64,000 nucleotides of DNA, taken from positions 1 through 64,000 of the IMG/VR virus record IMGVR_UViG_3300030108_004141. One strand, written 5' to 3'. Position numbers and translations under genes: made by a program. Below are positions 11,858 to 55,145 of the stretch, piece by piece. The notes below the pieces were generated by a model. That model was given only the letters and a program-made list of their open reading frames with translations. It made no database searches and was not told where the DNA came from. The stretch comes from a virus. Positions within the stretch are counted from its first letter, which is position 1; the number at the start of each line of letters is the position of its first letter.

Positions 11858-12076
11858 ATGAGCGATATTGAACAAGCGATCGCGGCTGCTAGAGATAGTA
11901 ATGCTGCCGACTTTCAGTCAAGTATACAGTCCGCTCTCATGGATCGTCTAGGTGACGCAATCGATGCGAGAAAGACGCAGGTTGCTGCTTCATATCTCCA
12001 GCCTGAAGAAGAACCTGAAGAACTCGAGGTCGAAGTAGACGAACCAGAAGCAGAGGAACCTGAGCCTGATGTCTAA
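11858..12076 (+). CDS. prohead core protein, gp67-like
   Basis: Small, acidic C-terminus; lies between portal and protease. Confidence 0.7.
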   Translation: MSDIEQAIAAARDSNAADFQSSIQSALMDRLGDAIDARKTQVAASYLQPEEEPEELEVEVDEPEAEEPEPDV

Positions 12077-12695
12077 ATCTTTTTCGCAGCTTGTAGAGCA
12101 GCTCAACAAACGCTCAAAATTAGAGGAACGTCGGTCAGAGGCTGACGATCCATACTCATATGACCCAAAGGATGATGAGACTAAATCTCTTGAGCCACGC
12201 GCGAAAGGCGAGCGCGACTTCAAAGGCAAACACAAAGTTGAAAAGAAAAAGCATCCTGTTGCTGGTGACGATGTATTTCAGGGAGCTACTAAACCTGGGG
12301 GACCGCATAAGGGTTACGAAAAGGCAGGTGAACCTGTAATCAAGCAAGGTTCTAGTGATGTCAAAGTGAATCACGACGGTTCTAAAAATCCTGATAAGAG
12401 CAAAGCTATACCTAAAAGATTTGGTGATCTTCGGGTAGTAAATCCTGTCAAGGAAAGTGTTGAGCTAGAAGAAACTGCGTTTCAAGATATTCAAAAGATA
12501 GCCAAAAGCAAGCGCGAAGGGCGTGTTCGCTTTTCCAATGGTCGTTTCGAATCTGTCGATCCTGATACGGCTAAAGCTCTCGTTTCGGCTCATGGCAAAC
12601 TGAACTCTGGTAATAAACAAAAATTTGAGCAAACCGTCAACAAAGATTTCACAGGAATGATGAAGATGGTTGACTTCGCCATGGGAAACAAATAG
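12069..12695 (+). CDS. prohead core / internal head protein (gp68 position)
   Basis: Synteny; N-terminal MSKSFSQLVE resembles a capsid-targeting leader; internal VKESVELEE. Confidence 0.55.
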   Translation: MSKSFSQLVEQLNKRSKLEERRSEADDPYSYDPKDDETKSLEPRAKGERDFKGKHKVEKKKHPVAGDDVFQGATKPGGPHKGYEKAGEPVIKQGSSDVKVNHDGSKNPDKSKAIPKRFGDLRVVNPVKESVELEETAFQDIQKIAKSKREGRVRFSNGRFESVDPDTAKALVSAHGKLNSGNKQKFEQTVNKDFTGMMKMVDFAMGNK

Positions 12696-12990: not shown

Positions 12991-13647
12991 ATGAAACTGA
13001 TCTGCGAAGTCAACGAAGATATTCAATGCCTAGTTGAAGACGATCTTAATGAAGAAGGAAAGAAAAATTACTTCATTGAAGGCGTTTTCATGCAAGGTAA
13101 TATCAAGAACAAAAACGGTCGAGTCTATCCCGTTGATGTTCTGAAGAAAGAAGTCGACCGTTATAATAAACAATATATTGCGGAGAACCGTGCTTATGGT
13201 GAGCTCGGTCATCCTCAAGGTCCAACGATCAACCTCGAACGTGTTTCACACATGATTAAAGAGTTGCGCCAAGACGGCGATAACTTCAGAGGAAAAGCTA
13301 AGATTATGGACACGCCATATGGCAATATTGTAAAAAATCTCATGAACGAAGGCGCAAAACTTGGTGTTTCCTCTCGAGGTATGGGAACGCTCGCTAAGAA
13401 AGGTGACTCGATGGAGGTTGGTAAAGACTTTCATCTCGCAACCGCTGGCGATATCGTTGCTGATCCCTCCGCACCACAGGCGTTCGTTGAAGGTATTATG
13501 GAAGGCAAAGAATGGGTTTGGGATAATGGCATCCTTCATGAGGTTGACATTGCTTCAGCCAAACAACAAATCGAAGAAGCTGCTTCAACGAGACGCACTG
13601 AGGCTGAGGTTCTTAAGGTTTGGGAAAAATTAGTGAGGGGTCTATAG
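12991..13647 (+). CDS. gp21: prohead protease gp21
   Basis: NKNGRVYP, GELGHP, LGVSSRGMG, DIVADPSAP. Confidence 0.97.
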   Translation: MKLICEVNEDIQCLVEDDLNEEGKKNYFIEGVFMQGNIKNKNGRVYPVDVLKKEVDRYNKQYIAENRAYGELGHPQGPTINLERVSHMIKELRQDGDNFRGKAKIMDTPYGNIVKNLMNEGAKLGVSSRGMGTLAKKGDSMEVGKDFHLATAGDIVADPSAPQAFVEGIMEGKEWVWDNGILHEVDIASAKQQIEEAASTRRTEAEVLKVWEKLVRGL

Positions 13648-13656
13648 ATCCATTTT

Positions 13657-13664
13657 TATAAATA
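13657..13664 (+). promoter_or_regulatory. late promoter TATAAATA
   Basis: Exact consensus upstream of gp22. Confidence 0.85.
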
Positions 13665-13706
13665 AGACGTCAAGAAATTTCAATGAGGAAATTAGGAGAT
13701 AGAAAT

Positions 13707-14840
13707 ATGTCTGAAGAACTAGAAAAAATCGTCGAGGACGAAGTGCTCGAAGATGCTCAAGATGAGAGCATTGATGAAGCAAAGAAAGCGTCCATGGGCG
13801 ATCCCTCCGAGGTTCCTGAGCCAACAGCAGCAACTGCGAAAGCTCCAGGGAAATCGAAAAATCAGGGAGATAAAGCTCCTCCGGCTCAAGGCTCCTCAGT
13901 AAAACCTGCAACTAAGATGGCTATGCTTAACGCTGCCATGGCACATATGGGTCAAATGAAAAAAGCTGACCTACAAGCCATGATGGGAAAGATGGGCATG
14001 TACGGTACTGAGGGCATGCACAAAGAGGGTATGCATAAAGATAAGATGAAAAAAGAGGGCATGCATAAAGAAGAAGTCGTGCTCGAAAAAGTAACTCGCG
14101 AAGATTTTGATATCACTGATGATGTCGCAGCAATTTTCGCTGGTTCCGAAGTTTCAGAAGAGTTCGTAGCAAAAGCAACCGAAATTTTCGAAACAGCTGT
14201 TGTTGCTAAAGTCAACGATAAGCTCGCCGAAGTTGCTGAGGTTGCTGAGTCAGAACTTGCTGAGTCTACTGAAGTATTCAATAAAGAACTTGTTGATAAA
14301 GTCGATAGCTATCTCGATTATGTTGTTGAGTCTTGGATGGAAGAAAACAAACTTGCTGTAGACATCGGTTTGCGTGGCGAAATTGCTGAGTCTTTCATCG
14401 GCGGTCTTAAAAACTTGTTTGAGGATCACTACATTGATATCCCCGAAGAGAAGGCTGATGTAGTTGAGGAGCTCGCTAACAAAGTTGAAGAGCTCGAGGC
14501 AAAACTCAACGAGTCGATTGAAGAAACGATTGAACTCAAAAAGAAAAATGAAGAGTTCGAGCGTGCTGTAGTTTTTGCTGAAGAAATCGATGGTTTGACC
14601 GAAACTCAAATCGCTAAGATGGAATCTCTATCTGAGGCAGTCGATTTTGAAAGCGAAGAAGATTTCCGTGAAAAACTTCAAACGATCCGCGAAAATTATT
14701 TCGATGGTCCGAAAGAGGTAATCACCGAAACGGCTGGTTTTGATGACGAGCCAATTGAAATTGATGATGAGGAACCTGCGACCCCCAAGGGTGCCATGGG
14801 TGCCTATGTCGCAAGCATTTCACGACAAGTTAAGAAATAG
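13707..14840 (+). CDS. gp22: prohead scaffold gp22
   Basis: KVDSYLDYVVESWMEEN, FIGGLKNLFEDHYIDIPEEK; start chosen after AGGAG. Confidence 0.93.
   Translation: MSEELEKIVEDEVLEDAQDESIDEAKKASMGDPSEVPEPTAATAKAPGKSKNQGDKAPPAQGSSVKPATKMAMLNAAMAHMGQMKKADLQAMMGKMGMYGTEGMHKEGMHKDKMKKEGMHKEEVVLEKVTREDFDITDDVAAIFAGSEVSEEFVAKATEIFETAVVAKVNDKLAEVAEVAESELAESTEVFNKELVDKVDSYLDYVVESWMEENKLAVDIGLRGEIAESFIGGLKNLFEDHYIDIPEEKADVVEELANKVEELEAKLNESIEETIELKKKNEEFERAVVFAEEIDGLTETQIAKMESLSEAVDFESEEDFREKLQTIRENYFDGPKEVITETAGFDDEPIEIDDEEPATPKGAMGAYVASISRQVKK
14010..14069 (+). repeat. 15-nt in-frame tandem repeat (EGMHK x3)
   Basis: GAGGGYATGCAYAAA units with one divergent unit. Confidence 0.8.
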
Positions 14841-14845
14841 CATTT

Positions 14846-14853
14846 TATAAATA
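14846..14853 (+). promoter_or_regulatory. late promoter TATAAATA
   Basis: Exact consensus upstream of gp23. Confidence 0.85.
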
Positions 14854-14890
14854 TTGTTTGAAATAATCTCGAAAGGAGAAGGAGAGTAAA

Positions 14891-16279
14891 ATGTCTGATA
14901 ACCTAATGGAAAAGTGGGGTCCCGTTCTTGATCATCCAGATCTAGATAAGATCGGTGACTCTCACAAACGCCACGTTGTCGCACAGCTTTTGGAAAACCA
15001 GGAGCAATCGGCTCGTGAACAGGGCGTTGGCTCTGGTGGATATAACGCTCCGTCACTACTGGGCGAGGCTGCACCTACGAACGCGATGGGTGCTTCTTCC
15101 TCGACCGCGTCTGACGGTGCTGTTGATATCTTCGACCCAGTGCTAATCAGCCTCGTTCGTCGTTCCATGCCTAACCTGATCGCCTATGACGTATGCGGCG
15201 TTCAGCCTATGACTGGTCCGACTGGTCTAATCTTTGCGCTTCGTTCACGCTTCAGCAGCCAGTCTGGCACCGAAGCTCTGTTCGACGAAGCCAATACCAC
15301 GTTCTCGCGTTCTGCTGTTGCTAACACAGCTTCTCAGCTCGTTGTTGCTAACGCAACTGGTGGTAAAACTCAAACCAGCAATGATCCTACGACTCGTGCT
15401 GCTGACTCAGCTGTCACTGGTTATAGCGTATCAACTGGTGTTTCAACTGCGGATATGGAAGCTCGTGGCGATGGTGCTACGAATGCTTTCCAAGAAATGG
15501 CATTCAGTGTCGAGAAAGTTGCTGTCACGGCAGTATCTCGTGCTCTGAAAGCTGAGTACACGATGGAATTGGCTCAAGATCTTAAGGCAGTTCATGGTCT
15601 TGACGCCGAAACTGAGCTCAGCAATATTCTTTCTGCTGAGATCCTTGCGGAAATCAATCGCGAAGTCATTCGTACGATTAACTATTCTGCAACTCCTGGT
15701 GCTCAGGAAAATGTCACTTCCGCTGGTACTTTCAACCTTGACACCGACTCTAACGGTCGTTGGATGGTTGAGAAGTTCAAAGGTCTGTTGTTCCAGATCG
15801 AACGCGACGCCAACGAAATTGCGAAGGCAACTCGTCGGGGTAAAGCTAACGTCATGATCTGCGATTCGGATGTAGCATCCGCGTTGTCGATGGCTGGCGT
15901 GCTTGACTACAGCCCTGCGATGTCGACGAACCTCAATGTAGACGACACGGGTAACACCTTCGCTGGTGTTCTCAATGGTCGGATCCGCGTTTACATCGAT
16001 CCGTACTTCAGCTCCAATGCTGGCAACCGCTACTTCACGGTTGGCTACAAAGGTGCGAGTGCTTTCGATGCGGGTCTGTTCTATTGCCCATACGTGCCTC
16101 TGCAAATGGTCCGCGCCATCGGCGAAGATACCTTCCAGCCAAAAATTGGCTTCAAAACTCGATACGGAATGGTCGCGAATCCGTTCGCTACGACCGATGC
16201 CGATGGAGTTATTGGTGGCTTCGACGGAAACAAAGCTAACAAATACTATCGTTTGGCTGCTGTTTCAAACCTTATGTAA
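14891..16279 (+). CDS. gp23: major capsid protein gp23
   Basis: CGVQPMTGPTGLIFA, RALKAEYTMELAQDLKAVHGLDAE, FQPKIGFKTRYG. Confidence 0.98.
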   Translation: MSDNLMEKWGPVLDHPDLDKIGDSHKRHVVAQLLENQEQSAREQGVGSGGYNAPSLLGEAAPTNAMGASSSTASDGAVDIFDPVLISLVRRSMPNLIAYDVCGVQPMTGPTGLIFALRSRFSSQSGTEALFDEANTTFSRSAVANTASQLVVANATGGKTQTSNDPTTRAADSAVTGYSVSTGVSTADMEARGDGATNAFQEMAFSVEKVAVTAVSRALKAEYTMELAQDLKAVHGLDAETELSNILSAEILAEINREVIRTINYSATPGAQENVTSAGTFNLDTDSNGRWMVEKFKGLLFQIERDANEIAKATRRGKANVMICDSDVASALSMAGVLDYSPAMSTNLNVDDTGNTFAGVLNGRIRVYIDPYFSSNAGNRYFTVGYKGASAFDAGLFYCPYVPLQMVRAIGEDTFQPKIGFKTRYGMVANPFATTDADGVIGGFDGNKANKYYRLAAVSNLM

Positions 16280-46566: not shown

Positions 46567-46972
46567 AACTAGGAAAAAAGTTTTAATTGCTGCAGTTTGG
46601 ATGCTCTATGATCAGCTTGGTAATAGAGTCGCACCGAATATCACATTAGAAATTGATCTAATCAAATTACTCATACATGATGAGGCAGTTTTCGGTGATT
46701 GTTTCGCTGCAGACAGTATGAGATACAACAGACCAAGATACTTTCAAATCAGATTGGATGCAGGTTTAAAACTGCCAGTTCTTCTTGAAACATTAGCGCA
46801 CGAAATAGTTCATCTCAGGCAATACGCTAAAGATCAGCTGTATGAATACAGAAACGGAGACAGCCGATACGCTGGCAAACGATACCCAAAAGATTGTGAA
46901 GATCTACCATGGGAAGATGAAGCTCATGCACTGGAGCAGCACATTTATCACAGATACACTTCTCAATTATAA
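46499..46972 (+). CDS. HExxH zincin-like metalloprotein
   Basis: TLAHEIVHLRQY, PWEDEA; start uncertain. Confidence 0.75.
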   Translation: MTNIKSLTHTQVPEITVRGSNFKTRKKVLIAAVWMLYDQLGNRVAPNITLEIDLIKLLIHDEAVFGDCFAADSMRYNRPRYFQIRLDAGLKLPVLLETLAHEIVHLRQYAKDQLYEYRNGDSRYAGKRYPKDCEDLPWEDEAHALEQHIYHRYTSQL

Positions 46973-47990: not shown

Positions 47991-49217
47991 ATGCTTAAAC
48001 TTCAAAGCTATCTCACCGAGCAAAAGAATGTTCACATGGAGCACCTCGAAGATCTGGTGCTGAACAAAGGTATTGTCGGTGCACGTGAGATATTTGCATT
48101 CCTGACCTCACTTGGTGAGATGCTTGGCGGCAATAGCAAAAGCAGTATGAAAGCCACTGTCAAGTGGGATGGTGCACCTGCTATCTTTATGGGTGTTGAT
48201 CCTGCTGACAAAAAGTTCTTCGTTGCGAAGAAAGGTTTGTTCAACAAAACTCCTAAGATGTACAAAACGAATGCTGAGATCGATGCTGATATATCTGGCT
48301 CTCTCAACGCAAAGTTCAAAACTGCTCTCGCTGAGTTTGCGAAACTTGGTTTGAAGAGTGGTGTCGTTCAGGGCGATATGATGTTCACCAGTGGTGATGT
48401 CAATACCGAAACAATCGAGGGCAAAAAGTATTACACGTTCCAACCCAACACGATTGTATATGCAGTTCCTATCAATACACCTTTGGGTCGCCAAATCAAA
48501 CGATCAAAGATTGGTGTCGTTTGGCATACAACATACGAGGGAAAAGATATTCAATCAATGCGTGCATCGTTTGGTAAAGGTATTGTTCGTCGGTTGAGAA
48601 AGAGCAGCTCGGTTTGGATGGATGATGCAACTTATCGTGATGTATCTGGTCAGGCGACTATGACTGCTGCTGAAACGAAAGAGTTCCGTGGTCACGTTTC
48701 TGCAGCTGGCAGATTACTTCGCACGATTCCTACTAAAGCACTGGCGACGATAGCGGATAACGAACAGCTCTTGATGATGGTCAAGACGTACAACAATACA
48801 AAGGTCCGAGCTGGTGAACCTATAAAAAATACAACTGCTCATGCTCGTGGTCTGATTACATATCTCGACGCTAAGTTCAAAGCAGAGGAAGACAAACGTA
48901 AAACCGAAAAAGGCAAGCAAGGTGTTCGTGATAGAAAGAAAGAAGTCATGGGACCTTTGCTGACTGTTCCTGTATCCCAGCTCGCTGCGATATTTGATTT
49001 CATGAATACCATTGTAGACGCTAAAGCAATCATCGTTCGTAAAATGAATCAGGCGGCATCGGTCGGTACATTCTTAAGAACGAAAAAGGGATTTAGAGTT
49101 ACAGCACCTGAAGGATATGTTGCTATCGATAAATCTAAAGGGGGAGCAGTAAAGCTGGTCGACCGACTAGAGTTCAGTCGAGCGAACTTTTCTGCCGATG
49201 TTCTTAAGGGATGGTAG
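47991..49217 (+). CDS. ligase-like nucleotidyltransferase with capsid-targeting-like leader
   Basis: MLKLQSYLTE; KWDG, VQGDMMF, PEGYV, VKLVDR in ligase motif order I-III-IV-V. Confidence 0.6.
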   Translation: MLKLQSYLTEQKNVHMEHLEDLVLNKGIVGAREIFAFLTSLGEMLGGNSKSSMKATVKWDGAPAIFMGVDPADKKFFVAKKGLFNKTPKMYKTNAEIDADISGSLNAKFKTALAEFAKLGLKSGVVQGDMMFTSGDVNTETIEGKKYYTFQPNTIVYAVPINTPLGRQIKRSKIGVVWHTTYEGKDIQSMRASFGKGIVRRLRKSSSVWMDDATYRDVSGQATMTAAETKEFRGHVSAAGRLLRTIPTKALATIADNEQLLMMVKTYNNTKVRAGEPIKNTTAHARGLITYLDAKFKAEEDKRKTEKGKQGVRDRKKEVMGPLLTVPVSQLAAIFDFMNTIVDAKAIIVRKMNQAASVGTFLRTKKGFRVTAPEGYVAIDKSKGGAVKLVDRLEFSRANFSADVLKGW

Positions 49218-49378
49218 AAAAGATAAAGAGCGGCGACAGATATATTGTAATGGTGAACGGTAAAATAATGTTTCATGGCAGCACCGAAAATGCTGCTAAG
49301 TTTGCTAAAAGTATAAATAACAGGATAGATAGATCTAATTCGGAGGAAAAAAATGCCATATCAGATTCTAACGCCTGA
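49211..49378 (+). CDS. small hypothetical protein (55 aa; not in the ORF track)
   Basis: MVEKIKSGDRYIVMVNGKIMFHGS...; overlaps both neighbours. Confidence 0.45.
   Translation: MVEKIKSGDRYIVMVNGKIMFHGSTENAAKFAKSINNRIDRSNSEEKNAISDSNA
49312..49319 (+). promoter_or_regulatory. late promoter TATAAATA
   Basis: Exact consensus upstream of the internal-protein cluster. Confidence 0.8.
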
Positions 49379-50010: not shown

Positions 50011-50063
50011 ATGCGATAAGCTCAAGGGAAACTCGCATAGCAGTAAGTCTAAGGAAAACCTGC
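50011..50063 (+). promoter_or_regulatory. tandem hairpin RNA element over the RBS
   Basis: Two stems with different sequences closing matching 16-nt loops TAAG-YYY-AAGG-R-AAAC. Confidence 0.6.
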
Positions 50064-50064
50064 G

Positions 50065-52959
50065 ATGAAGAAAGCAACGATAACATTTGGTAGGATGAAT
50101 CCTCCTACCGTCGGGCATGAAAAGCTCGTTAACAAGGTTATCGCAGTTGCACGCACAAAACGATCAGAACCTCGTGTATATCTTTCTCATACGCAAAATC
50201 CTAAGAAAGATCCCTTAAAGTATTCTCAGAAAATAAAAAATGCACGCGCTGCATTCGGCAACGTCGTGAAGCAATCAAACATAAAGAACATCGTTGGAAT
50301 TATGCAGTCTTTGGAAAAAGAGGGCATAGAAGAGATCACGATGGTTGTCGGTTCTGATCGTGTATCTAATTTCAGAACCTTCCTAAACAAGTACAACGGC
50401 AAAGACTATAACTTCAAAAAAATTACAGTGGTATCAGCTGGCACTCGTGATCCTGATGATGCTGGTGTTGCTGGAATGAGTGGAACTAAAATGCGTCAGT
50501 TGGCTGCAACTGGTAAAGAAAAAGAGTTCGCTGACGGTGCTCCCTCAGGATTATCTGTAGCACAAAAGAAAACACTCTACAAGGATGTGAGAAAAGGAAT
50601 GAACATACGAGAAGAAGTAGAACTGCTCGAGGCAGAGTTCAAAGATAAGGATCTTGAAAATTATATCAAGAGAGCGCAATATCAAGATTTCGAACCTACA
50701 GTCGATGATGTTGTTTTAGCTAAACATATCTTTCAACAAGACGACGATGAACTCGAGGAAGACGAAGAGGAATTAAACGAGAGAAAGCCACTCACGTTTC
50801 AGCAGAGACAAAAGATAGCAATTCGCATGAAGCGACTCGCTCCAAGAATGAAGCGTCTTCGAGCTATCAAGAAAAAACGTATGGCAACTCCCGATCGTCT
50901 TAAATATCGTGCGCGCAAAGCTGCTTTGAATATCCTTCGTCGCCGAGCTGCTGGCTCTCGTGGCGCGAAGTATGCATCTCTGAGCCGAACCGATAAAATT
51001 AATATCGACAGACAACTCAATAACAGGTACAAAGGTCCAGCACTTCGTAAGATAGTCGATCGTTTTTCTAGACGTATGTTACCAATGATTAGAAGAAAAG
51101 AAATGGAAAGACTGAAAAAAGCAAGGTCAGCTAAAAAAGAAGAAATCGATATTCGATTTGAAACTTTTTTATCTGAAGAAACTTATAAGGGTGTTGATAT
51201 AGGCAACTGGGTATATGAGGGTCCGAAAGATTTTGTTAAGAAACTGATTGATGAGTTCGGCAAGCCAGACTATATTGAAAAGAACCCAGAAAGTGGAGAG
51301 GCATACTCTGCTGTGTTCAAGAACATAGATGGTTTCGATTTCGTTCGTATAGTAGATTCAAACACTAATAAGCTGCACCCATATCCTGCAAAAATATATG
51401 TAGAGGGTGGTTTATATTTCAAAGTTCCACAAGAAATGGTTGGAAAGTTGAAGGAGGCATCCCCAACAATTATAATCGATGAACTGAACGGATTTGTTAT
51501 AGGAAAATGTGCGAGCTTGACCATATGTGCCGCAACGTTGCAATTTGTTATCGATGCTGTCAACGGTGACGCACCTGCGACAAGGGAAGAGTATGATAAG
51601 AGACTTCGAAAAATTATCGATGATGGTAAGACTGATCCAGAAATACCATGGTGGGAAAATAAACTAAATGAATCGGTGATACTCGAAAAAGAAGACAGCG
51701 ATATCGGCGATCGTAAAGGGAAACAACCAGCGCAGTATCACAGTGGCTTGAAAGTTTCAACAAAGAAAAAGAGAGACACTCAGTTTCAACGTCAGGCTAA
51801 AATGAAAGACGATGACCCACGTGCATATAAGAAGGCTCCTGGTGACTCCGCTAAAACTAAACCATCACAATATACAACGAGGTACAAGCAAATGTATGGA
51901 GAGGATATCGATAAGGAGTTCGAAACATTCCTTGAGCAATCATCTGCGCTTGATAGACTAAAGAAGTTCGATAAGTCGCGAGAGGCTGCAGGAAAAAAGC
52001 CAATCTTCACTCCAAGTAAACCAACCACCTTTGTGAAGATGAAGAAACCTGGATTGATGACCACAATGAATGTTCCTGACCATGAGGTTGACAAATATAA
52101 GAAGAAAGGTTTCAATGTACATAGTGAGGAAAATATCGATACAAAGTTTGAACAGTTTCTCGAGTACACAGTAACCCCATCGAGCCATTTAGCACCAACC
52201 TCTGCACCAAGAGATATCATTCCTTCGGTATTTGCTTCCGATGATGAGGATCCAAGTGACAAGGCTTCACGAAAGAGCAAGGTTGATATTTTGTTGCGTC
52301 TCGGTTTAGTGCCGAAAGATGAAATACAAAAGTATCGACGTGCGCTTCGTAATAGAGACACTGCTCTTAAGAATCCTGATTTGCGAAAGAAGCTCGATAA
52401 TTTGCTAGACAAGCTGCTCGACTTTTCCACCAGCGACTCTGCTGTTTATCAGAAGTTACGCAGGTCAGTGACGCAAGAGGATATTGAGCGTCGTGCTGAT
52501 GTCAGAATGATAAAGGTTAAGATGCCTGATGGTCGAGTGGTTTTCAAGAAAGATAGAAAAGAAATCAAAGTCGGCGATGTTCGTGAGGATGAGGCTCTCA
52601 TGAAAAAGCATGATAATGAAAAAGAGCGGTTGAAACTTCGCCATGCTCGAGAAAAAGGTGCGGCAAAAGTTCGTGCGATTCGGCGTGATAATTTGAAAGA
52701 TGAGGTTGAACTTGATGAGAAAGCTCTGAAGGGTTTACAAAACAAAGCTGAAAAATCTGGTATCCCATATGGTATCTTGAAACAAGTTTACAACCGAGGT
52801 ATGGCTGCTTGGAAAACAGGTCATCGCCCAGGAGCAAGTCAGCAACAATGGGCGTATGCTCGCGTGAACTCTTTCATCACAGGTGGTAAAACTAGAACGA
52901 CTGCTGATAAAGATCTTTGGGCAAAGGCAAGCGCAGCTCGAGCTAGGAAGAGAAAATAA
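50065..52959 (+). CDS. 964-aa modular polyprotein with N-terminal HxGH nucleotidyltransferase domain
   Basis: FGRMNPPTVGH, VGSDR, MSGTKMR; then basic and globular modules separated by EExIDxxFExFL(x)E linkers. Confidence 0.8.
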   Translation: MKKATITFGRMNPPTVGHEKLVNKVIAVARTKRSEPRVYLSHTQNPKKDPLKYSQKIKNARAAFGNVVKQSNIKNIVGIMQSLEKEGIEEITMVVGSDRVSNFRTFLNKYNGKDYNFKKITVVSAGTRDPDDAGVAGMSGTKMRQLAATGKEKEFADGAPSGLSVAQKKTLYKDVRKGMNIREEVELLEAEFKDKDLENYIKRAQYQDFEPTVDDVVLAKHIFQQDDDELEEDEEELNERKPLTFQQRQKIAIRMKRLAPRMKRLRAIKKKRMATPDRLKYRARKAALNILRRRAAGSRGAKYASLSRTDKINIDRQLNNRYKGPALRKIVDRFSRRMLPMIRRKEMERLKKARSAKKEEIDIRFETFLSEETYKGVDIGNWVYEGPKDFVKKLIDEFGKPDYIEKNPESGEAYSAVFKNIDGFDFVRIVDSNTNKLHPYPAKIYVEGGLYFKVPQEMVGKLKEASPTIIIDELNGFVIGKCASLTICAATLQFVIDAVNGDAPATREEYDKRLRKIIDDGKTDPEIPWWENKLNESVILEKEDSDIGDRKGKQPAQYHSGLKVSTKKKRDTQFQRQAKMKDDDPRAYKKAPGDSAKTKPSQYTTRYKQMYGEDIDKEFETFLEQSSALDRLKKFDKSREAAGKKPIFTPSKPTTFVKMKKPGLMTTMNVPDHEVDKYKKKGFNVHSEENIDTKFEQFLEYTVTPSSHLAPTSAPRDIIPSVFASDDEDPSDKASRKSKVDILLRLGLVPKDEIQKYRRALRNRDTALKNPDLRKKLDNLLDKLLDFSTSDSAVYQKLRRSVTQEDIERRADVRMIKVKMPDGRVVFKKDRKEIKVGDVREDEALMKKHDNEKERLKLRHAREKGAAKVRAIRRDNLKDEVELDEKALKGLQNKAEKSGIPYGILKQVYNRGMAAWKTGHRPGASQQQWAYARVNSFITGGKTRTTADKDLWAKASAARARKRK

Positions 52960-53291
52960 TGCTTTCGTTCGTTTCGTTCATAGAGTTAACAGAAGAGCCG
53001 AGGATTCCTAGGAAGCCTGGACAACCAGCTGGCTCAGACAAACACTCTGATTTGTATACGGACGAAAATCCAAAGGGAACTATCAAGGGGTTGAAGTTTG
53101 CGACAACAGCTGATGCGAAAGCGAGTGTGGCTAAGATCAAAAAATCAGGTCGATCTCATGCTCATAAAATACAGGCAGCGATAGCTATGGAGCAAAGAGC
53201 TAGAGTCATGGGTAAAACTGCAGCTGCAAACGTATATCGTGCATACATAAATAAGATGAAGAAGAAAACGAAAGAGATGCGAGATGGGTAA
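52959..53291 (+). CDS. small basic internal-protein candidate
   Basis: MLSFVSFIELTEE leader; SDLYTDENPKGTI module. Confidence 0.7.
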   Translation: MLSFVSFIELTEEPRIPRKPGQPAGSDKHSDLYTDENPKGTIKGLKFATTADAKASVAKIKKSGRSHAHKIQAAIAMEQRARVMGKTAAANVYRAYINKMKKKTKEMRDG

Positions 53292-53694
53292 AAAGCTAAA
53301 ATCATTCAAGCAATACAGCAGCGGTGAGATGGGTATAGGTTCTGATGAACTAGCCAACAAATACAAACGCGACACTCCTGGTCAAGAAGAGGGTCATGCT
53401 GTTGCTTCTTTTTCAGCAGATAAACCTGAGCTTTCGCCAACTGCCAGAGAGTCAGGATTGTACACTGCTAATGAAGCTGGACCTTGTTGGGATGGTTATA
53501 AGCAACTCGGTATGAAAAAAGGTAAGAGTGGAAAACCTGTGCCGAACTGTGTGAAAGAATCACAGCCCAATAAATTTGATTCAAGCACTGTTCTTATTTT
53601 CCGTAGGAATCCAAACACAGGTGAAATGAAAGAGATGCGCATCGATAAAATAAAAGTCAACGAATATCTATCGAGAGGATGGGCAAGGAAATGA
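53284..53694 (+). CDS. modular internal-protein candidate
   Basis: LKSFKQY leader; YKRDTPGQ and CWDGY...VPNCV modules. Confidence 0.7.
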   Translation: MGKKLKSFKQYSSGEMGIGSDELANKYKRDTPGQEEGHAVASFSADKPELSPTARESGLYTANEAGPCWDGYKQLGMKKGKSGKPVPNCVKESQPNKFDSSTVLIFRRNPNTGEMKEMRIDKIKVNEYLSRGWARK

Positions 53695-54050
53695 AAACCT
53701 TCAGGCAATATGTCTTAGAGCAAGCAGAGCCGTGTTGTGAAGGTTGTGCTGATGATGACATAATCGAGCAAGCTGAGTATCAGGGTCGGAAAGTAAAACT
53801 TAACAACCCAACTCGCTCCGATAACCCCAAGTCCAAGCGCATGGTTTACGTGCGCAATGATAAGGGAAACGTTGTTAAGGTTTACTTCGGCGACCCTAAT
53901 CTCGAAATCAAGCGCGACGATCCTGCTCGTCGTAAAAATTTTAGAGCGCGGCATAACTGCGATAACCCTGGACCAAAATATAAAGCACGTTATTGGTCTT
54001 GCAAATTTTGGGAGAAAGGCAAGTCGGTCACCGATTTGATGAAAGGCTGA
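53691..54050 (+). CDS. internal-protein candidate
   Basis: MKTFRQYVLE (cf. T4 IPIII MKTYQEFIAE); FRARHNC...YWSC. Confidence 0.75.
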   Translation: MKTFRQYVLEQAEPCCEGCADDDIIEQAEYQGRKVKLNNPTRSDNPKSKRMVYVRNDKGNVVKVYFGDPNLEIKRDDPARRKNFRARHNCDNPGPKYKARYWSCKFWEKGKSVTDLMKG

Positions 54051-54307
54051 TGTACAAATCACTAGAAACTACAATCAAAGAATTAAATCTCAAAGAAGAT
54101 GGACACGATGATGTCGCTTCTATGAAAAATAAAGTTGAGATCGGCTTGAAGGCTTTTGAAAAAATGAAAGCTGCATTAGATAAGTTGCCTGATGAGGGTA
54201 GCATTCCTACATGGTGGACTAATAAAGTCGCAACGGCTGTTGCTCGCATCGACGATATGTCAGATTACCTAGATACGAAAATGAATGGAGAGAAAGATGA
54301 GGAATAA
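54050..54307 (+). CDS. small helical protein
   Basis: TGATG-coupled start; LKEDGH, PTWWTNKVA. Confidence 0.7.
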   Translation: MYKSLETTIKELNLKEDGHDDVASMKNKVEIGLKAFEKMKAALDKLPDEGSIPTWWTNKVATAVARIDDMSDYLDTKMNGEKDEE

Positions 54308-55145
54308 CAAAGATTTCGGTTTGCCTGACAGCTTACTCGATGCTGTTCGTCAGGTCGTAGAAAAGAAACTAGATCCGGTTGATCCTAAAGAACTCAAAGG
54401 GAAACACGCAGATCGCAAGGATAAAGATATCGATAACGATGGTGATGTAGATTCTACTGATAAGTTTTTACATCGACGTCGGAAAGCTATTACGAAAGCC
54501 ATAGCGACGAAAGAAGCAATGCAAAAGCCATATGTTTCTTCTGATCGTGATGGTCACCATGTCATGACTGGTTCTGGTAAAATTTCAAAGAGCTTTAAAG
54601 ATACAAAATCTGCAGCTGCTCACCTCAAGAAAAATTTTACTAAACTTCAAAAAGAAGATGTGAATGAGGGTTACGAAGATACAGTCATGAAAGCTCTCAA
54701 GAAAAAACGTATCGATGGTCGTTTTGACAAAGGAGATCTTTTTGTAAGCAAGCGTGATGTAAAGGCTGCAAGAGATGCGCTCAAAAGAGACTTCAACATC
54801 AAACAGCTTCCAAAAATTGTAGGCGAAGATGATGCTTTGATTGGAGTTGCGAAAAAGCTGAAGAAAGCTAGTAAAGCACATGCTGGTCAAGCAGATAAAA
54901 TTATGAAACATGTCAAAGATATGGGCGAGGCAGCTAACCCTGCTCAGCAAGCAGCGATCGCTATTGCCATGAAGAAGGCTGGTAAGAAACCTAAGAATGA
55001 AGGTGCTATGAAGCGCATGGCAACTGGCGGTGGTATGAAAACTTTCAAACCTAAACCACCTGCCAAGTCGGAGGAAAAGAAAGGTAAGAAAGATATGATT
55101 GATGTCAAGCCATCGATGGAGGCATCAGAACTGCCAAAAAAGTAA
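54297..55145 (+). CDS. modular basic internal-protein candidate; probably extends to 55255 in the -1 frame
   Basis: DKDIDNDGDVD, EAANPAQQAAIAIAMKK; ends at A_AAA_AAG TAA. Confidence 0.75.
   Translation: MRNNKDFGLPDSLLDAVRQVVEKKLDPVDPKELKGKHADRKDKDIDNDGDVDSTDKFLHRRRKAITKAIATKEAMQKPYVSSDRDGHHVMTGSGKISKSFKDTKSAAAHLKKNFTKLQKEDVNEGYEDTVMKALKKKRIDGRFDKGDLFVSKRDVKAARDALKRDFNIKQLPKIVGEDDALIGVAKKLKKASKAHAGQADKIMKHVKDMGEAANPAQQAAIAIAMKKAGKKPKNEGAMKRMATGGGMKTFKPKPPAKSEEKKGKKDMIDVKPSMEASELPKK

What the first reader, a model, noticed from the sequence alone, without database searches (positions are those of the whole stretch)
50065..52959. 964-aa polyprotein punctuated by internal copies of the capsid-targeting/cleavage signal
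Seen: three linkers EEIDIRFETFLSEE (51139-51180), EDIDKEFETFLEQ (51901-51939) and EENIDTKFEQFLEY (52126-52167), plus acidic linkers (EEELNE, LNESVILE, DEVELDE). They separate an NTase domain, a very Arg/Lys-rich domain (50782-51138), a globular domain and several basic modules. The FxxFL(x)E core mirrors the YxxFIxE core of the T4 targeting sequence. Inference: a polyprotein built by fusing cargo cassettes, charge-balanced by acidic linkers during assembly and released as basic fragments by gp21.
Basis: partly seen in the sequence, partly recalled or inferred. Interest (0 to 1): 0.8.

Follow-up and report, generated by a model that had tools for sequence, protein, structure and literature searches.

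The report
Phage cargo polyprotein with targeting-signal linkers
A 964-residue protein of a marine T4-like phage is a chain of interchangeable modules joined by short signals like those T4 uses to load proteins into its head and cut them, so it probably delivers several proteins into the host.

Summary
ORF 50065-52959 (+) encodes 964 aa, and all six linker strings sit at the stated coordinates. A motif matrix trained on distant relatives scores the three FExFL linkers at 21-23 bits. Nothing else in six frames of the 79.8-kb contig exceeds 12.8.

The host genome is a T4-like marine myovirus (Kyanoviridae-like) with gp21, gp22 and gp23 homologues.

- **Cassettes:** The modules are real cassettes. 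In relatives they are deleted, reordered, or stand alone as ORFs.
- **Leaders:** Such ORFs often begin with a T4-like leader (MLSFKQFVSE, MITFKKYLEE, MKSFKEFIDE; T4 IPII/III is MKTYQEFIAE).
- **Motif:** The junction consensus is E-[DS]-[ILF]-D-x-x-F-E-x-F-[LI]-x-E. It best matches T4 gp23 at its maturation cleavage site, FGSFLTE65.
- **Structure:** All linkers fall in low-confidence segments between modelled modules.
- **Virion evidence:** Published virion proteomes detect homologous nucleotidyltransferases. I checked the S-CREM2 one, which starts MKNFSSFLTEA.
- **Expression:** A late-promoter consensus lies upstream.

Packaging as a fused cargo protein is well supported. Cleavage at the internal motifs is only inferred: one of the three has a canonical L-x-E. 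The charge-balancing idea fails, because the protein has a net charge of +60.

I judge this a new variant of the T4 internal-protein system, shared by about 2,900 or more database proteins. I found no prior description.

The parts
50065..52959 (+). 964-aa mosaic ORF (P0001), stop codon included
   Evidence: It is found on 5 contigs. Relatives at about 90% identity (926 aa) sit on contigs up to 144 kb.
50065..50604 (+). HxGH nucleotidyltransferase domain (aa 1-180; TVGH 15-18, SGTKMR 139-144). It has no N-terminal leader.
   Evidence: phrog_3041 1e-79 and phrog_395 2e-44, both 'cytidyltransferase'. Pfam CTP_transf_like is below its cut-off. pLDDT is 84-91 over most of the domain, lower over aa 121-140. 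Foldseek places it nearest NadD/NMNAT/PPAT, TM 0.6-0.66.
50722..50781 (+). Acidic linker 1, ending EEELNE with an L-N-E site (aa 220-239)
   Evidence: pLDDT below 50 over 220-222 and 224-240. At this junction L006 carries EDIDSDFAEFVEEE, and C48C1 starts a separate ORF with MLSFKQFVSE.
50782..51138 (+). Arg/Lys-rich helical module (aa 240-358)
   Evidence: phrog_23027 3e-19. Helices with mean pLDDT 70-87 over most of the module. Net charge +34 counted with motif 1. It is a stand-alone leader-headed ORF in C48C1 (L001:5582-5953) and Melnitz (L013:4570-4962).
51139..51180 (+). Junction motif 1, EEIDIRFETFLSEE (canonical L-S-E371)
   Evidence: 22.1 bits. Inside the low-pLDDT segment 357-395. It directly precedes the folded globular domain.
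51181..51687 (+). Globular alpha/beta module (aa 373-541), ending LNESVILE
   Evidence: Domain model pLDDT 93.5, pTM 0.89. 163 representative relatives at varied positions in proteins of 40-2490 aa. Precisely absent from L004 and P0040. A separate leader-headed ORF in L006/L007. No Pfam family.
51688..51900 (+). Conserved 'DRKGxQPAxYHxGL...KPAPGD...TKPS' module (aa 542-612)
   Evidence: Present in C48C1, HTVC008M, Melnitz and many mosaics, and permuted relative to other modules. Stand-alone leader-headed forms exist, such as MLTFNEYLVEK....
51901..51939 (+). Junction motif 2, EDIDKEFETFLEQ (F-L-E624, non-canonical)
   Evidence: 21.1 bits. Inside the pLDDT<50 segment 611-627. Relatives read FLSE, FIEE or FLDE at this position.
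51940..52125 (+). Basic module 'SSALDRLKKFDKSREAAGKKPIF...' (aa 626-687)
   Evidence: Found at other positions in P0044 and P0080. Modelled as helices plus a beta hairpin, mean pLDDT about 56-77.
52126..52167 (+). Junction motif 3, EENIDTKFEQFLEY (F-L-E700, non-canonical)
   Evidence: 22.7 bits. Inside the pLDDT<50 segment 688-749. The FLEY variant is conserved in L003, L004 and P0033.
52168..52479 (+). Helical module '...LRLGLVPKDEIQKYRRAL...' (aa 702-805)
   Evidence: A stand-alone 94-aa ORF in L006/L007 (MHNFKDIINTD...) and a stand-alone ORF in L010.
52480..52593 (+). Mini-cassette of about 38 aa (IERRADVRMIKVKMPDGRVVFKK...), aa 806-843
   Evidence: Absent from the 93%-identical relative L003 and the 926-aa cluster. 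Present in L004, P0008 and P0033.
52594..52956 (+). DUF5824 region (aa 844-964): a long helix, the acidic linker DEVELDE (L-D-E885), then the core
   Evidence: Pfam PF19141 6e-20 over aa 845-951. pLDDT below 50 over 876-883. The core is a stand-alone 90-aa ORF starting MITFKKYLEE in C48C1.
49312..49319 (+). T4-type late-promoter consensus TATAAATA upstream of the transcription unit
   Evidence: 13 sites in the window, all on the + strand, against 3.3 expected. The others precede the head genes gp22 and gp23.
12991..13647 (+). gp21-type prohead protease, the presumed processing enzyme
   Evidence: phrog_207 3e-76. The His (GELGHP) and Ser (GVSSRG) align with the residues in T4 gp21 that PMC12991175 mutates as the catalytic pair H85/S140. 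The scaffold gene (13683-14840) and major capsid gene (14891-16279) are adjacent.
47991..49217 (+). Neighbouring DUF6267 (KxDG) protein starting MLKLQSYLTEQ
   Evidence: Pfam DUF6267 3e-105. Its orthologues lie upstream of the NTase gene in HTVC008M, C48C1, Melnitz, Syn9 and P-SSM4 (directly adjacent in Syn9 and P-SSM4); leaders are MMLDFKNFITEQ (C48C1) and INFSKYITED (Melnitz).
52959..53291 (+). Downstream 110-aa ORF starting MLSFVSFIELTEE
   Evidence: The same module is internal in P0067, preceded by ESIDEKFESLFLEE.
53679..54050 (+). Downstream 123-aa ORF; the leader MKTFRQYVLEQ begins at the second Met (53691)
   Evidence: The L004 orthologue starts MKSFKEFIDE and C48C1 starts MKKFKQYIDE. 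The same module is the C-terminal cassette of P0044, P0054, P0060 and P0080.

Best explanation
The ORF is a late-expressed cargo polyprotein of a T4-like marine myovirus. It strings together independently evolving cassettes:
- an NMNAT/NadD-like nucleotidyltransferase
- a highly basic helical module
- a compact alpha/beta domain of unknown fold
- several small basic modules
- DUF5824

Each internal FExF[LI]xE junction descends from, or is equivalent to, the N-terminal leader that heads the same cassettes when they are separate genes. That leader matches the T4 capsid-targeting sequence and the gp21 recognition context.

Inferred mechanism: during prohead assembly the motifs take the protein into the scaffolding core. 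This would make up for the missing N-terminal leader. The gp21-type protease then cuts after the Glu that follows the hydrophobic core, and at the L/I-x-E acidic linkers. The released modules stay with the DNA and are ejected into the host.

Shown: the motifs, the modularity, the linker positions, the leader equivalence, the presence of the protease and the late-promoter consensus. Inferred: packaging of this particular protein, the cleavage, and what the modules do in the host.
For: 1. Motif specificity: the three sites score 21-23 bits; shuffles reach at most 10.7 and the rest of the contig at most 12.8.
2. Cassettes:
   - The globular module is cleanly absent in L004 and P0040.
   - It is a separate ORF starting MIKFSSYIKED or MIRFSSYISED in L006/L007.
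   - The basic module and the DUF5824 core are separate ORFs starting MLSFKQFVSE and MITFKKYLEE in C48C1.
   - Module order is permuted in many relatives.
3. Homology break-points cluster at motifs: 18.3% of HSP ends lie within 12 aa of a motif, against 6.7 +/- 1.2% for random placement.
4. T4 comparison: IPII and IPIII start MKTYQEFIAE and IPI starts MKTFKEFTS. The junction matrix's top hit in T4 gp23 is FGSFLTE 59-65 (15.2 bits; next best 2.5). That is the site after which the 65-residue propeptide is removed (PMC9958956).
5. Glu follows the hydrophobic core: at +5 or +6 in 53 of 61 distinct junction motifs, against a background Glu frequency of 7.4%. A canonical [LI]-x-E occurs in 32 of 61. 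T4 gp21 prefers I/L-x-E and cuts x-x-E more weakly (PMC12991175).
6. Complementarity: among NTase-first relatives without an N-terminal extension, 23 of 28 have internal motifs. Among those with an extension, 1 of 10 does (Fisher p = 1e-4).
7. Structure: all three motifs and all three acidic linkers fall in pLDDT<50 segments between better-modelled modules. The globular domain folds alone at pLDDT 93.5, starting right after motif 1.
8. Genomic context: gp21, gp22 and gp23 homologues are present, and the window's gp23 keeps L-G-E|A at the aligned cleavage site. TATAAATA lies at 49312.
9. Published virion proteomes: the S-CREM2 cytidylyltransferase gp154 was detected in CsCl-purified virions (PMC10665884). 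It is a homologue (E = 3e-19) and starts MKNFSSFLTEA. S-SCSM1 and S-CBWM1 are also reported to carry NMNAT-like virion proteins (PMC9602691). Syn9 gp184 and P-SSM4 gp155 start MKKFSAFLSEA and MKKFSAFLKEA.
Against: - There are no proteomic or cleavage data for this phage or any pelagimyophage.
- Two of the three internal motifs here have Glu at +5 (F-L-E), not the canonical L/I-x-E. About 13% of junction motifs in relatives have no Glu at +5 or +6 (for example FENFVATG in L006).
- The junction matrix does not recover N-terminal leaders in general: 1 of 110 ORFs, which is the chance level. The internal form also carries an extra upstream E-[DS]-[ILF]-D. The two forms are related but not identical.
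- In this sample the largest group of stand-alone globular-domain proteins starts MEYKGIDIG with no leader.
- The T4-class N-terminal pattern test (7 of 201 ORFs against 0.46 expected) used a pattern chosen after seeing the data.
- The complementarity test is confounded by protein length and shared ancestry.
- The authors of the virion proteomes note that abundant non-structural proteins can co-purify with virions.
- T4's CTS has only been shown to work at an N-terminus.
Confidence: 0.55

Rival explanations
1. The protein is packaged but not processed at the FExFL motifs. On this reading the motifs are scaffold- or core-binding helices kept after gene fusion. The protein then enters the head whole, or is cut only at a few acidic L/I-x-E linkers, and acts as one large multi-domain internal protein.
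For: Motifs 2 and 3 lack a canonical L/I-x-E. The internal consensus has its own conserved upstream E-[DS]-[ILF]-D that N-terminal leaders lack, which hints at a binding function. Some polyvalent virion proteins are packaged unprocessed, for example the N4 virion RNA polymerase (PMC5512222).
Against: Glu at +5 or +6 is conserved in 87% of motifs, which fits a Glu-specific protease. The best T4 gp23 match is its cleavage site. T4 gp21 also cuts non-canonical x-x-E sites.
Confidence: 0.2
2. The protein is a cytoplasmic, non-virion multi-domain enzyme or DNA-binding protein. On this reading the FExFL segments are generic amphipathic linker helices, or docking sites for some other partner, and the likeness to T4 signals is convergent.
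For: No direct evidence places this protein in the virion. Many stand-alone globular-domain relatives have no leader. NMNAT-like enzymes have ordinary metabolic roles. The proteome authors caution about co-purification.
Against: The same leader heads unrelated modules in at least six phage lineages, all of which have T4-type head genes. A late-promoter consensus is shared with the head genes. Homologues are reported in several independent virion proteomes. N-terminal leaders and internal motifs are complementary. The extreme basic charge resembles that of DNA-associated internal proteins.
Confidence: 0.15
3. The motif is mainly a DNA-level recombination linker. On this reading a conserved nucleotide block promotes cassette exchange and the encoded peptide has no function of its own.
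For: Cassettes clearly shuffle at these points. By my recollection, the conserved CTS-coding sequence of T-even internal-protein loci has been proposed to aid recombination; I did not check this here.
Against: The three copies differ at most synonymous positions while keeping the peptide. The consensus is defined at the amino-acid level across relatives of only 30-50% identity.
Confidence: 0.05

Closest known systems
Phage T4 internal proteins IPI/IPII/IPIII with the capsid-targeting sequence, processed by the gp21 prohead protease
   Same: The head-assembly gene set is T4-type: gp21, gp22 and gp23 homologues. The leader pattern M-x-x-[FY]-x-x-[FY]-[ILV]-x-E on stand-alone modules matches MKTYQEFIAE and MKTFKEF. 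A Glu follows the hydrophobic core. The payloads are basic, variable and non-essential-looking, and they sit in a plastic locus.
   Different: In this protein the signal is internal and repeated, not N-terminal, and it carries an added acidic E-[DS]-[ILF]-D prefix. Many cassettes are chained into one protein of about 1,000 aa. The payloads include enzymes: an NTase here, and kinase-like and Cu/Zn SOD domains in relatives. There is no sequence homology to the T4 IP bodies. Internal function of a CTS has never been shown.
Maturation cleavage of T4 gp23, and degradation of core proteins gp22, gp67 and gp68 by gp21
   Same: The junction core F-E-x-F-L-x-E reproduces the gp23 site F-G-S-F-L-T-E65|A. 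Multiple cuts within one polypeptide are known for core proteins (PMC9958956).
   Different: In T4 the core proteins are degraded to small peptides that leave the head. Here the fragments are folded or conserved modules that are presumably retained.
Polyvalent proteins of phages and conjugative elements (Iyer et al. 2017, PMC5512222)
   Same: They are large proteins that combine many unrelated domains. They are encoded by portal-terminase phages, predicted to be packaged and delivered with the DNA, and compared by those authors to viral polyproteins.
   Different: Those proteins are thought to be released by embedded peptidase domains such as MPTase. No peptidase domain was detected here; the separators instead look like sites for the prohead protease acting in trans. 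The domain repertoire is different, and that paper does not contain the words cyanophage or Pelagibacter.
Processed ejection and inner-body proteins of giant phages (phiKZ, SPN3US)
   Same: They are head-internal proteins with propeptides removed after Glu, at A/S-x-E motifs, by a T4-related prohead protease. The propeptides are proposed to act as targeting sequences (PMC5694885).
   Different: Those propeptides are long N-terminal regions of 100 aa or more. They are not short repeated internal motifs that separate shufflable cassettes.
Cyanophage 'cytidyltransferase' / NMNAT-like virion-associated proteins (S-CREM2 gp154, S-SCSM1 ORF91, Syn9 gp184, P-SSM4 gp155)
   Same: The N-terminal HxGH domain is homologous (27% identity, E = 3e-19 to S-CREM2). 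They occupy the same synteny next to the DUF6267 gene. S-CREM2 gp154 and S-SCSM1 ORF91 were detected in virions.
   Different: The cyanophage proteins are 286-382 aa, with an N-terminal leader (MKKFSAFLSEA, MKNFSSFLTEA) and no chain of cassettes. The window protein lacks that leader and carries internal motifs instead.

Membership tests
T4-type CTS-tagged internal (capsid cargo) proteins | An N-terminal leader of about 10 aa resembling MKTYQEFIAE | tested here: not met
   P0001 starts MKKATITFGRMNPP, directly in the first strand of the NTase, and has no upstream start. The signal occurs internally three times instead. Neighbouring ORFs and orthologues do carry the N-terminal form.
T4-type CTS-tagged internal (capsid cargo) proteins | A gp21-type prohead protease and gp22-type scaffolding core encoded by the same phage | tested here: met
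   phrog_207 3e-76, phrog_237 2e-80 and phrog_138 4e-158 at 12991-16279. The catalytic His and Ser are conserved.
T4-type CTS-tagged internal (capsid cargo) proteins | An I/L-x-E cleavage site at the end of the signal | tested here: inconclusive
   Motif 1 has L-S-E371. Motifs 2 and 3 have F-L-E. Across relatives 52% of motifs are canonical and 87% have Glu at +5 or +6.
T4-type CTS-tagged internal (capsid cargo) proteins | Physical presence in the prohead or virion, and processing by the protease | not testable with these tools
   The only evidence comes from homologues: S-CREM2 gp154 (3 peptides, 11.2% coverage) in purified virions (PMC10665884), and NMNAT-like proteins in S-SCSM1 and S-CBWM1 virions (PMC9602691).
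T4-type CTS-tagged internal (capsid cargo) proteins | Late expression together with the head genes | tested here: met
   TATAAATA sits at 49312 upstream of the unit. The same octamer precedes gp22, gp23 and other structural genes. There are 13 sites against 3.3 expected, all on the + strand. This is sequence evidence only; there are no transcript data.
Polyvalent proteins (Iyer et al. 2017) | Several biochemically unrelated domains in one polypeptide of a phage with a portal-terminase packaging system | tested here: met
   The protein contains an NTase, a basic module, a globular domain, DUF5824 and small modules. The genome is T4-like.
Polyvalent proteins (Iyer et al. 2017) | An embedded peptidase, or the characteristic conflict domains (MPTase, ART, ArdC-N, MuF and others) | tested here: not met
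   No such Pfam or PHROG hit was found in P0001. The feature is frequent in that class but not obligatory.
HxGH nucleotidyltransferases (NMNAT/NadD/PPAT/cytidylyltransferase superfamily) | The (H/T)xGH motif, the ISxTxxR-like motif and a Rossmann-like fold | tested here: met
   TVGH is at aa 15-18 and SGTKMR at aa 139-144. Foldseek matches NadD and PPAT with probability 1.0 and TM 0.6-0.66. The PHROG match is 1e-79. Pfam PF01467 scores only 16.8 bits against a cut-off of 21. Substrate specificity is unknown.
DUF5824 (PF19141) | A profile match above the gathering threshold | tested here: met
   72.2 bits against a cut-off of 25, over aa 845-951.

The most novel reading that the evidence does not exclude
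T4-like phages of the most abundant ocean bacteria (SAR11, OM43, picocyanobacteria) may use a general 'leader-cassette' system. Any module that carries the FxxF[LI]xE signal, whether at the start of its own gene or inside a polyprotein, would be loaded into the prohead core and freed by the prohead protease. This would let phages shuffle and co-deliver enzymes into the host at the moment of injection. The candidates are an NMNAT-like NTase, P-loop kinases, a Cu/Zn SOD, a KxDG ligase-like protein and DNA-coating basic modules. If so, it would be a DNA-phage analogue of RNA-virus polyproteins that uses a trans-acting capsid protease.
Probability: 0.4. Interest if true: 0.8.

Novelty: new variant of a known kind. 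Interest (0 to 1): 0.7.

Why it matters
T4's capsid-targeting sequence is the classic route for loading proteins into a phage head. It is known only as an N-terminal tag on a few small coliphage proteins.

Here the same kind of signal marks the joints of large mosaic proteins. At least about 2,900 database protein clusters from marine metagenomes share one or more of these modules.

If the motifs are targeting and cleavage sites, three things follow:
- They explain how NMNAT-like enzymes, repeatedly seen in cyanophage virion proteomes, get into the capsid.
- They give a sequence rule for predicting injected proteins in uncultured ocean phages.
- They identify a cassette system through which these phages could vary what they inject.

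The rule can be tested directly with virion mass spectrometry of cultured relatives (Melnitz, HTVC008M, Syn9, P-SSM4).

Tried and rejected
- **Close DNA relatives:** megablast of the gene against the phage collection found nothing.
- **Sequence search of solved structures:** no hit for the NTase region, and only chance-level hits for the globular domain.
- **Fold of the globular domain:** Foldseek against the PDB gave no match below E = 0.05. VIA-align's best was Z 5.7 to YbjN/DR_1245 and type III secretion chaperone-like folds. That is below the level the tool calls meaningful, so I make no fold assignment. There is no Pfam family either.
- **Junction matrix on N-termini:** using the matrix core to find N-terminal leaders in the contig failed (1 of 110 ORFs, the chance level). 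Internal and N-terminal forms are therefore scored separately.
- **Full-length AF2 model:** it modelled the globular module poorly (pLDDT 30-54) because the alignment was shallow there. This was resolved with a dedicated alignment.
- **Literature:** 'cytitidyltransferase' and 'DUF5824' returned no papers. The 21 papers containing 'capsid targeting sequence' include none on marine phages. The pelagimyophage genomics paper (PMC7029224) contains none of the terms 'cytidyl', 'cytitidyl' or 'internal protein'. PhiM9 (PMC4621102) and Sullivan 2010 (PMC3037559) gave nothing on virion cytidyltransferases in their main text.
- **DNA-level recombination linker:** rejected as the main explanation because the copies differ at synonymous sites.
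- **Assembly or frameshift artefact:** rejected, because the same architecture recurs on many independent contigs.
- **Complex prediction:** not run. The binding partner of a CTS is unknown, and enzyme-substrate pairs are poor candidates for that tool.


Full report
**1. The observation**

The ORF at 50065-52959 (+) encodes 964 aa, and no in-frame start lies further upstream.

To test whether the three FExFL linkers exceed chance, I built a 15-column matrix from 44 junction motifs. These came from relatives whose module order differs from this protein. The matrix hits P0001 at exactly three places, with the first Phe at aa 365, 619 and 695, scoring 21.1-22.7 bits. The best of 500 shuffles of the protein scores 10.7. 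In a six-frame scan of the whole 79,763-bp contig the next best score is 12.8, in a non-coding frame. The three DNA copies differ at synonymous positions, so selection acts on the peptide.

**2. Genomic setting**

The contig is a T4-like marine myovirus. Genes for a gp21-type prohead protease (12991-13647), a gp22-type scaffold and a gp23-type capsid protein lie in the window. The protease keeps the His and Ser that align with the catalytic H85 and S140 of T4 gp21.

The closest sequenced phages are C48C1, Pelagibacter phage HTVC008M and the OM43 phage Melnitz, all classified in Kyanoviridae.

The T4 late-promoter octamer TATAAATA occurs 13 times against 3.3 expected, always on the + strand. 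It precedes the head genes and also sits at 46968, 49312 and 55247, around the locus that holds this ORF.

**3. Anatomy**

- The N-terminal 180 residues are an HxGH nucleotidyltransferase (TVGH, SGTKMR). The PHROG 'cytidyltransferase' match is 1e-79, the model is confident over most of the domain, and the nearest folds are NadD/NMNAT and PPAT.
- The C-terminus is DUF5824.
- Between them lie a very basic helical module (net +34 with motif 1), a 169-aa globular domain, and several small basic modules.
- Modelled alone with 61 relatives, the globular domain folds at pLDDT 93.5 and begins right after motif 1. It has no convincing match in the PDB.
- In the full-length model, all three motifs and all three acidic linkers fall in pLDDT<50 segments between better-modelled modules.

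**4. The modules are cassettes**

- A 72%-identical relative (L004) and P0040 lack the globular module exactly between motif 1 and the SVILE linker.
- A 93%-identical relative (L003) lacks a 38-aa mini-cassette.
- In L006 and L007 the globular module starts a separate ORF (MIKFSSYIKED, MIRFSSYISED), and the aa 730-805 module is a separate 94-aa ORF.
- In C48C1 the basic module (MLSFKQFVSE...) and the DUF5824 core (MITFKKYLEE...) are separate ORFs.
- In Melnitz four consecutive ORFs start MQGFKTFLSE, INFSKYITED, MKKFSELTSE and MKKFSEIIEA.

A database search found at least 2,939 proteins of 530-1,687 aa (the length range searched) that share modules with residues 200-964. The order of the modules is permuted, and some carry added P-loop kinase or Cu/Zn superoxide dismutase domains. 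Alignment break-points between 36 non-redundant relatives cluster at the motifs. For HSP ends, 18.3% lie within 12 aa of a motif, against 6.7 +/- 1.2% for randomly placed motifs. For HSP starts the figures are 10.7% against 6.6%.

**5. Link to T4 signals**

Read from the T4 record, IPII and IPIII start MKTYQEFIAE and IPI starts MKTFKEFTS. Orthologous leaders here include MKSFKEFIDE (L004), MKKFKQYIDE (C48C1) and MKTFRQYVLEQ (window, 53691).

The junction consensus is E-[DS]-[ILF]-D-x-x-F-E-x-F-[LIM]-x-E. Scanned over T4 gp23, its core picks FGSFLTE at residues 59-65 (15.2 bits; next best 2.5). This is the point after which the 65-residue propeptide is removed. The window's gp23 aligns L-G-E|A at that position.

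Among 61 distinct junction motifs, Glu is at +6 in 66%, at +5 or +6 in 87%, and forms a canonical [LI]-x-E in 52%. The background Glu frequency is 7.4%. T4 gp21 prefers I/L-x-E and cuts x-x-E more weakly.

**6. Leader and internal motif are complementary**

Of 28 non-redundant NTase-first relatives that start directly at the domain, as this one does, 23 carry at least one internal motif. Of 10 with an N-terminal extension, nine of them leader-like by eye, one carries an internal motif (Fisher p = 1e-4). Length and shared ancestry confound this test, so I treat it as supportive only.

**7. Experimental anchor from the literature**

Virion mass spectrometry of cyanophage S-CREM2 detected its cytidylyltransferase gp154. 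I confirmed that it is the phage's only homologue of this domain (E = 3e-19) and that it starts MKNFSSFLTEA. A second paper reports NMNAT-like proteins in the virions of S-SCSM1 and S-CBWM1. Syn9 gp184 and P-SSM4 gp155 start MKKFSAFLSEA and MKKFSAFLKEA. The authors of those papers did not connect the proteins to a targeting sequence, and they caution that abundant proteins can co-purify with virions.

**8. Weaknesses**

- Cleavage is not shown. Motifs 2 and 3 of this protein read F-L-E|Q and F-L-E|Y, which is non-canonical.
- The internal form has an extra acidic prefix. Its matrix does not find N-terminal leaders in general.
- My T4-class N-terminal pattern test (7 of 201 ORFs against 0.46 expected, p = 5e-7) used a pattern chosen after seeing the data.
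- Many stand-alone globular-domain proteins have no leader.
- The 'charge-balanced' idea fails. The protein has a net charge of +60 and pI 9.8, the predicted globular fragment is acidic and the NTase fragment is neutral.

**9. Comparison and novelty**

The system works like the T4 internal-protein/CTS/gp21 pathway, but it is not a member by the strict definition because it has no N-terminal CTS. It fits the broad concept of polyvalent phage proteins (PMC5512222), but it lacks an embedded peptidase and uses separators that look like prohead-protease sites.

No searched paper describes a capsid-targeting signal in marine T4-like phages or internal copies of one. I rate it a new variant of a known kind. 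Confidence is about 0.55 for the full packaging-plus-processing model. It is higher for packaging alone.

Other first-reader notes in this scan on the same stretch state the same idea. They are not independent evidence.

Noticed in passing
window 47991-49217: A 408-aa DUF6267 protein (Pfam 3e-105) carries a KWDGAP (KxDG) ligase or capping-enzyme-like motif and starts MLKLQSYLTEQ. Its orthologues lie just upstream of the NTase gene in HTVC008M, C48C1, Melnitz, Syn9 and P-SSM4. PHROG 455 models the two as one fused protein.
   Followed up: partly
window 12069-12695: A 208-aa ORF lies between the gp67-like gene and the gp21 protease gene. It starts MSKSFSQLVEQ, with L-V-E at residue 10. It may be a leader-bearing prohead core protein in the position of T4 gp68.
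   Followed up: no
L008:5989-7644 and L009:5995-6729: In two other viral contigs a mosaic protein sits between two baseplate-region genes rather than in the replication-proximal cargo locus. It contains the globular module, a CWxGY...C mini-module and DUF6321. One copy has a leader-like start and the other starts directly at the domain.
   Followed up: partly
P0090, P0080 and P0069 (relatives): Some relatives fuse a Zeta-toxin/AAA_33-like P-loop kinase into the same polyprotein, each preceded by a junction motif (for example ESIDEAFESYLEE|GINDPAIFK). One (P0090) also fuses a C-terminal Cu/Zn superoxide dismutase. In HTVC008M the kinase is a separate gene just upstream of the NTase.
   Followed up: partly
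window 54285-55145 and 53284-53694: Neighbouring ORFs share small modules with proteins of many Kyanoviridae and with the polyproteins of relatives. Examples are KKLDPVD...DKDIDNDGDVDSSD, CWDGYKQ.GMKK...PNCV and AKKLKKASKAHAGQA. P0008 has the last of these inserted just before motif 3.
   Followed up: partly
window, 13 sites (e.g. 784, 5288, 11819, 13657, 14846, 16404, 46968, 49312, 55247): TATAAATA occurs 13 times, all on the + strand, against 3.3 expected. Most sites lie 25-70 nt upstream of structural or cargo ORFs, which fits T4-type late promoters.
   Followed up: partly
window 51181-51687 (model m52dffaa7b6e3): The confidently modelled globular domain has only weak structural likeness (Z 5-5.7) to YbjN-family proteins and type III secretion chaperones. 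It may be a new fold family. 163 representative relatives exist, some inside proteins of up to 2,490 aa.
   Followed up: partly
window 50011-50067: Another first-reader note reports two hairpins just upstream of the start codon that cover the ribosome-binding site. I saw the AAGGA 9 nt before the ATG but did not fold the region.
   Followed up: no
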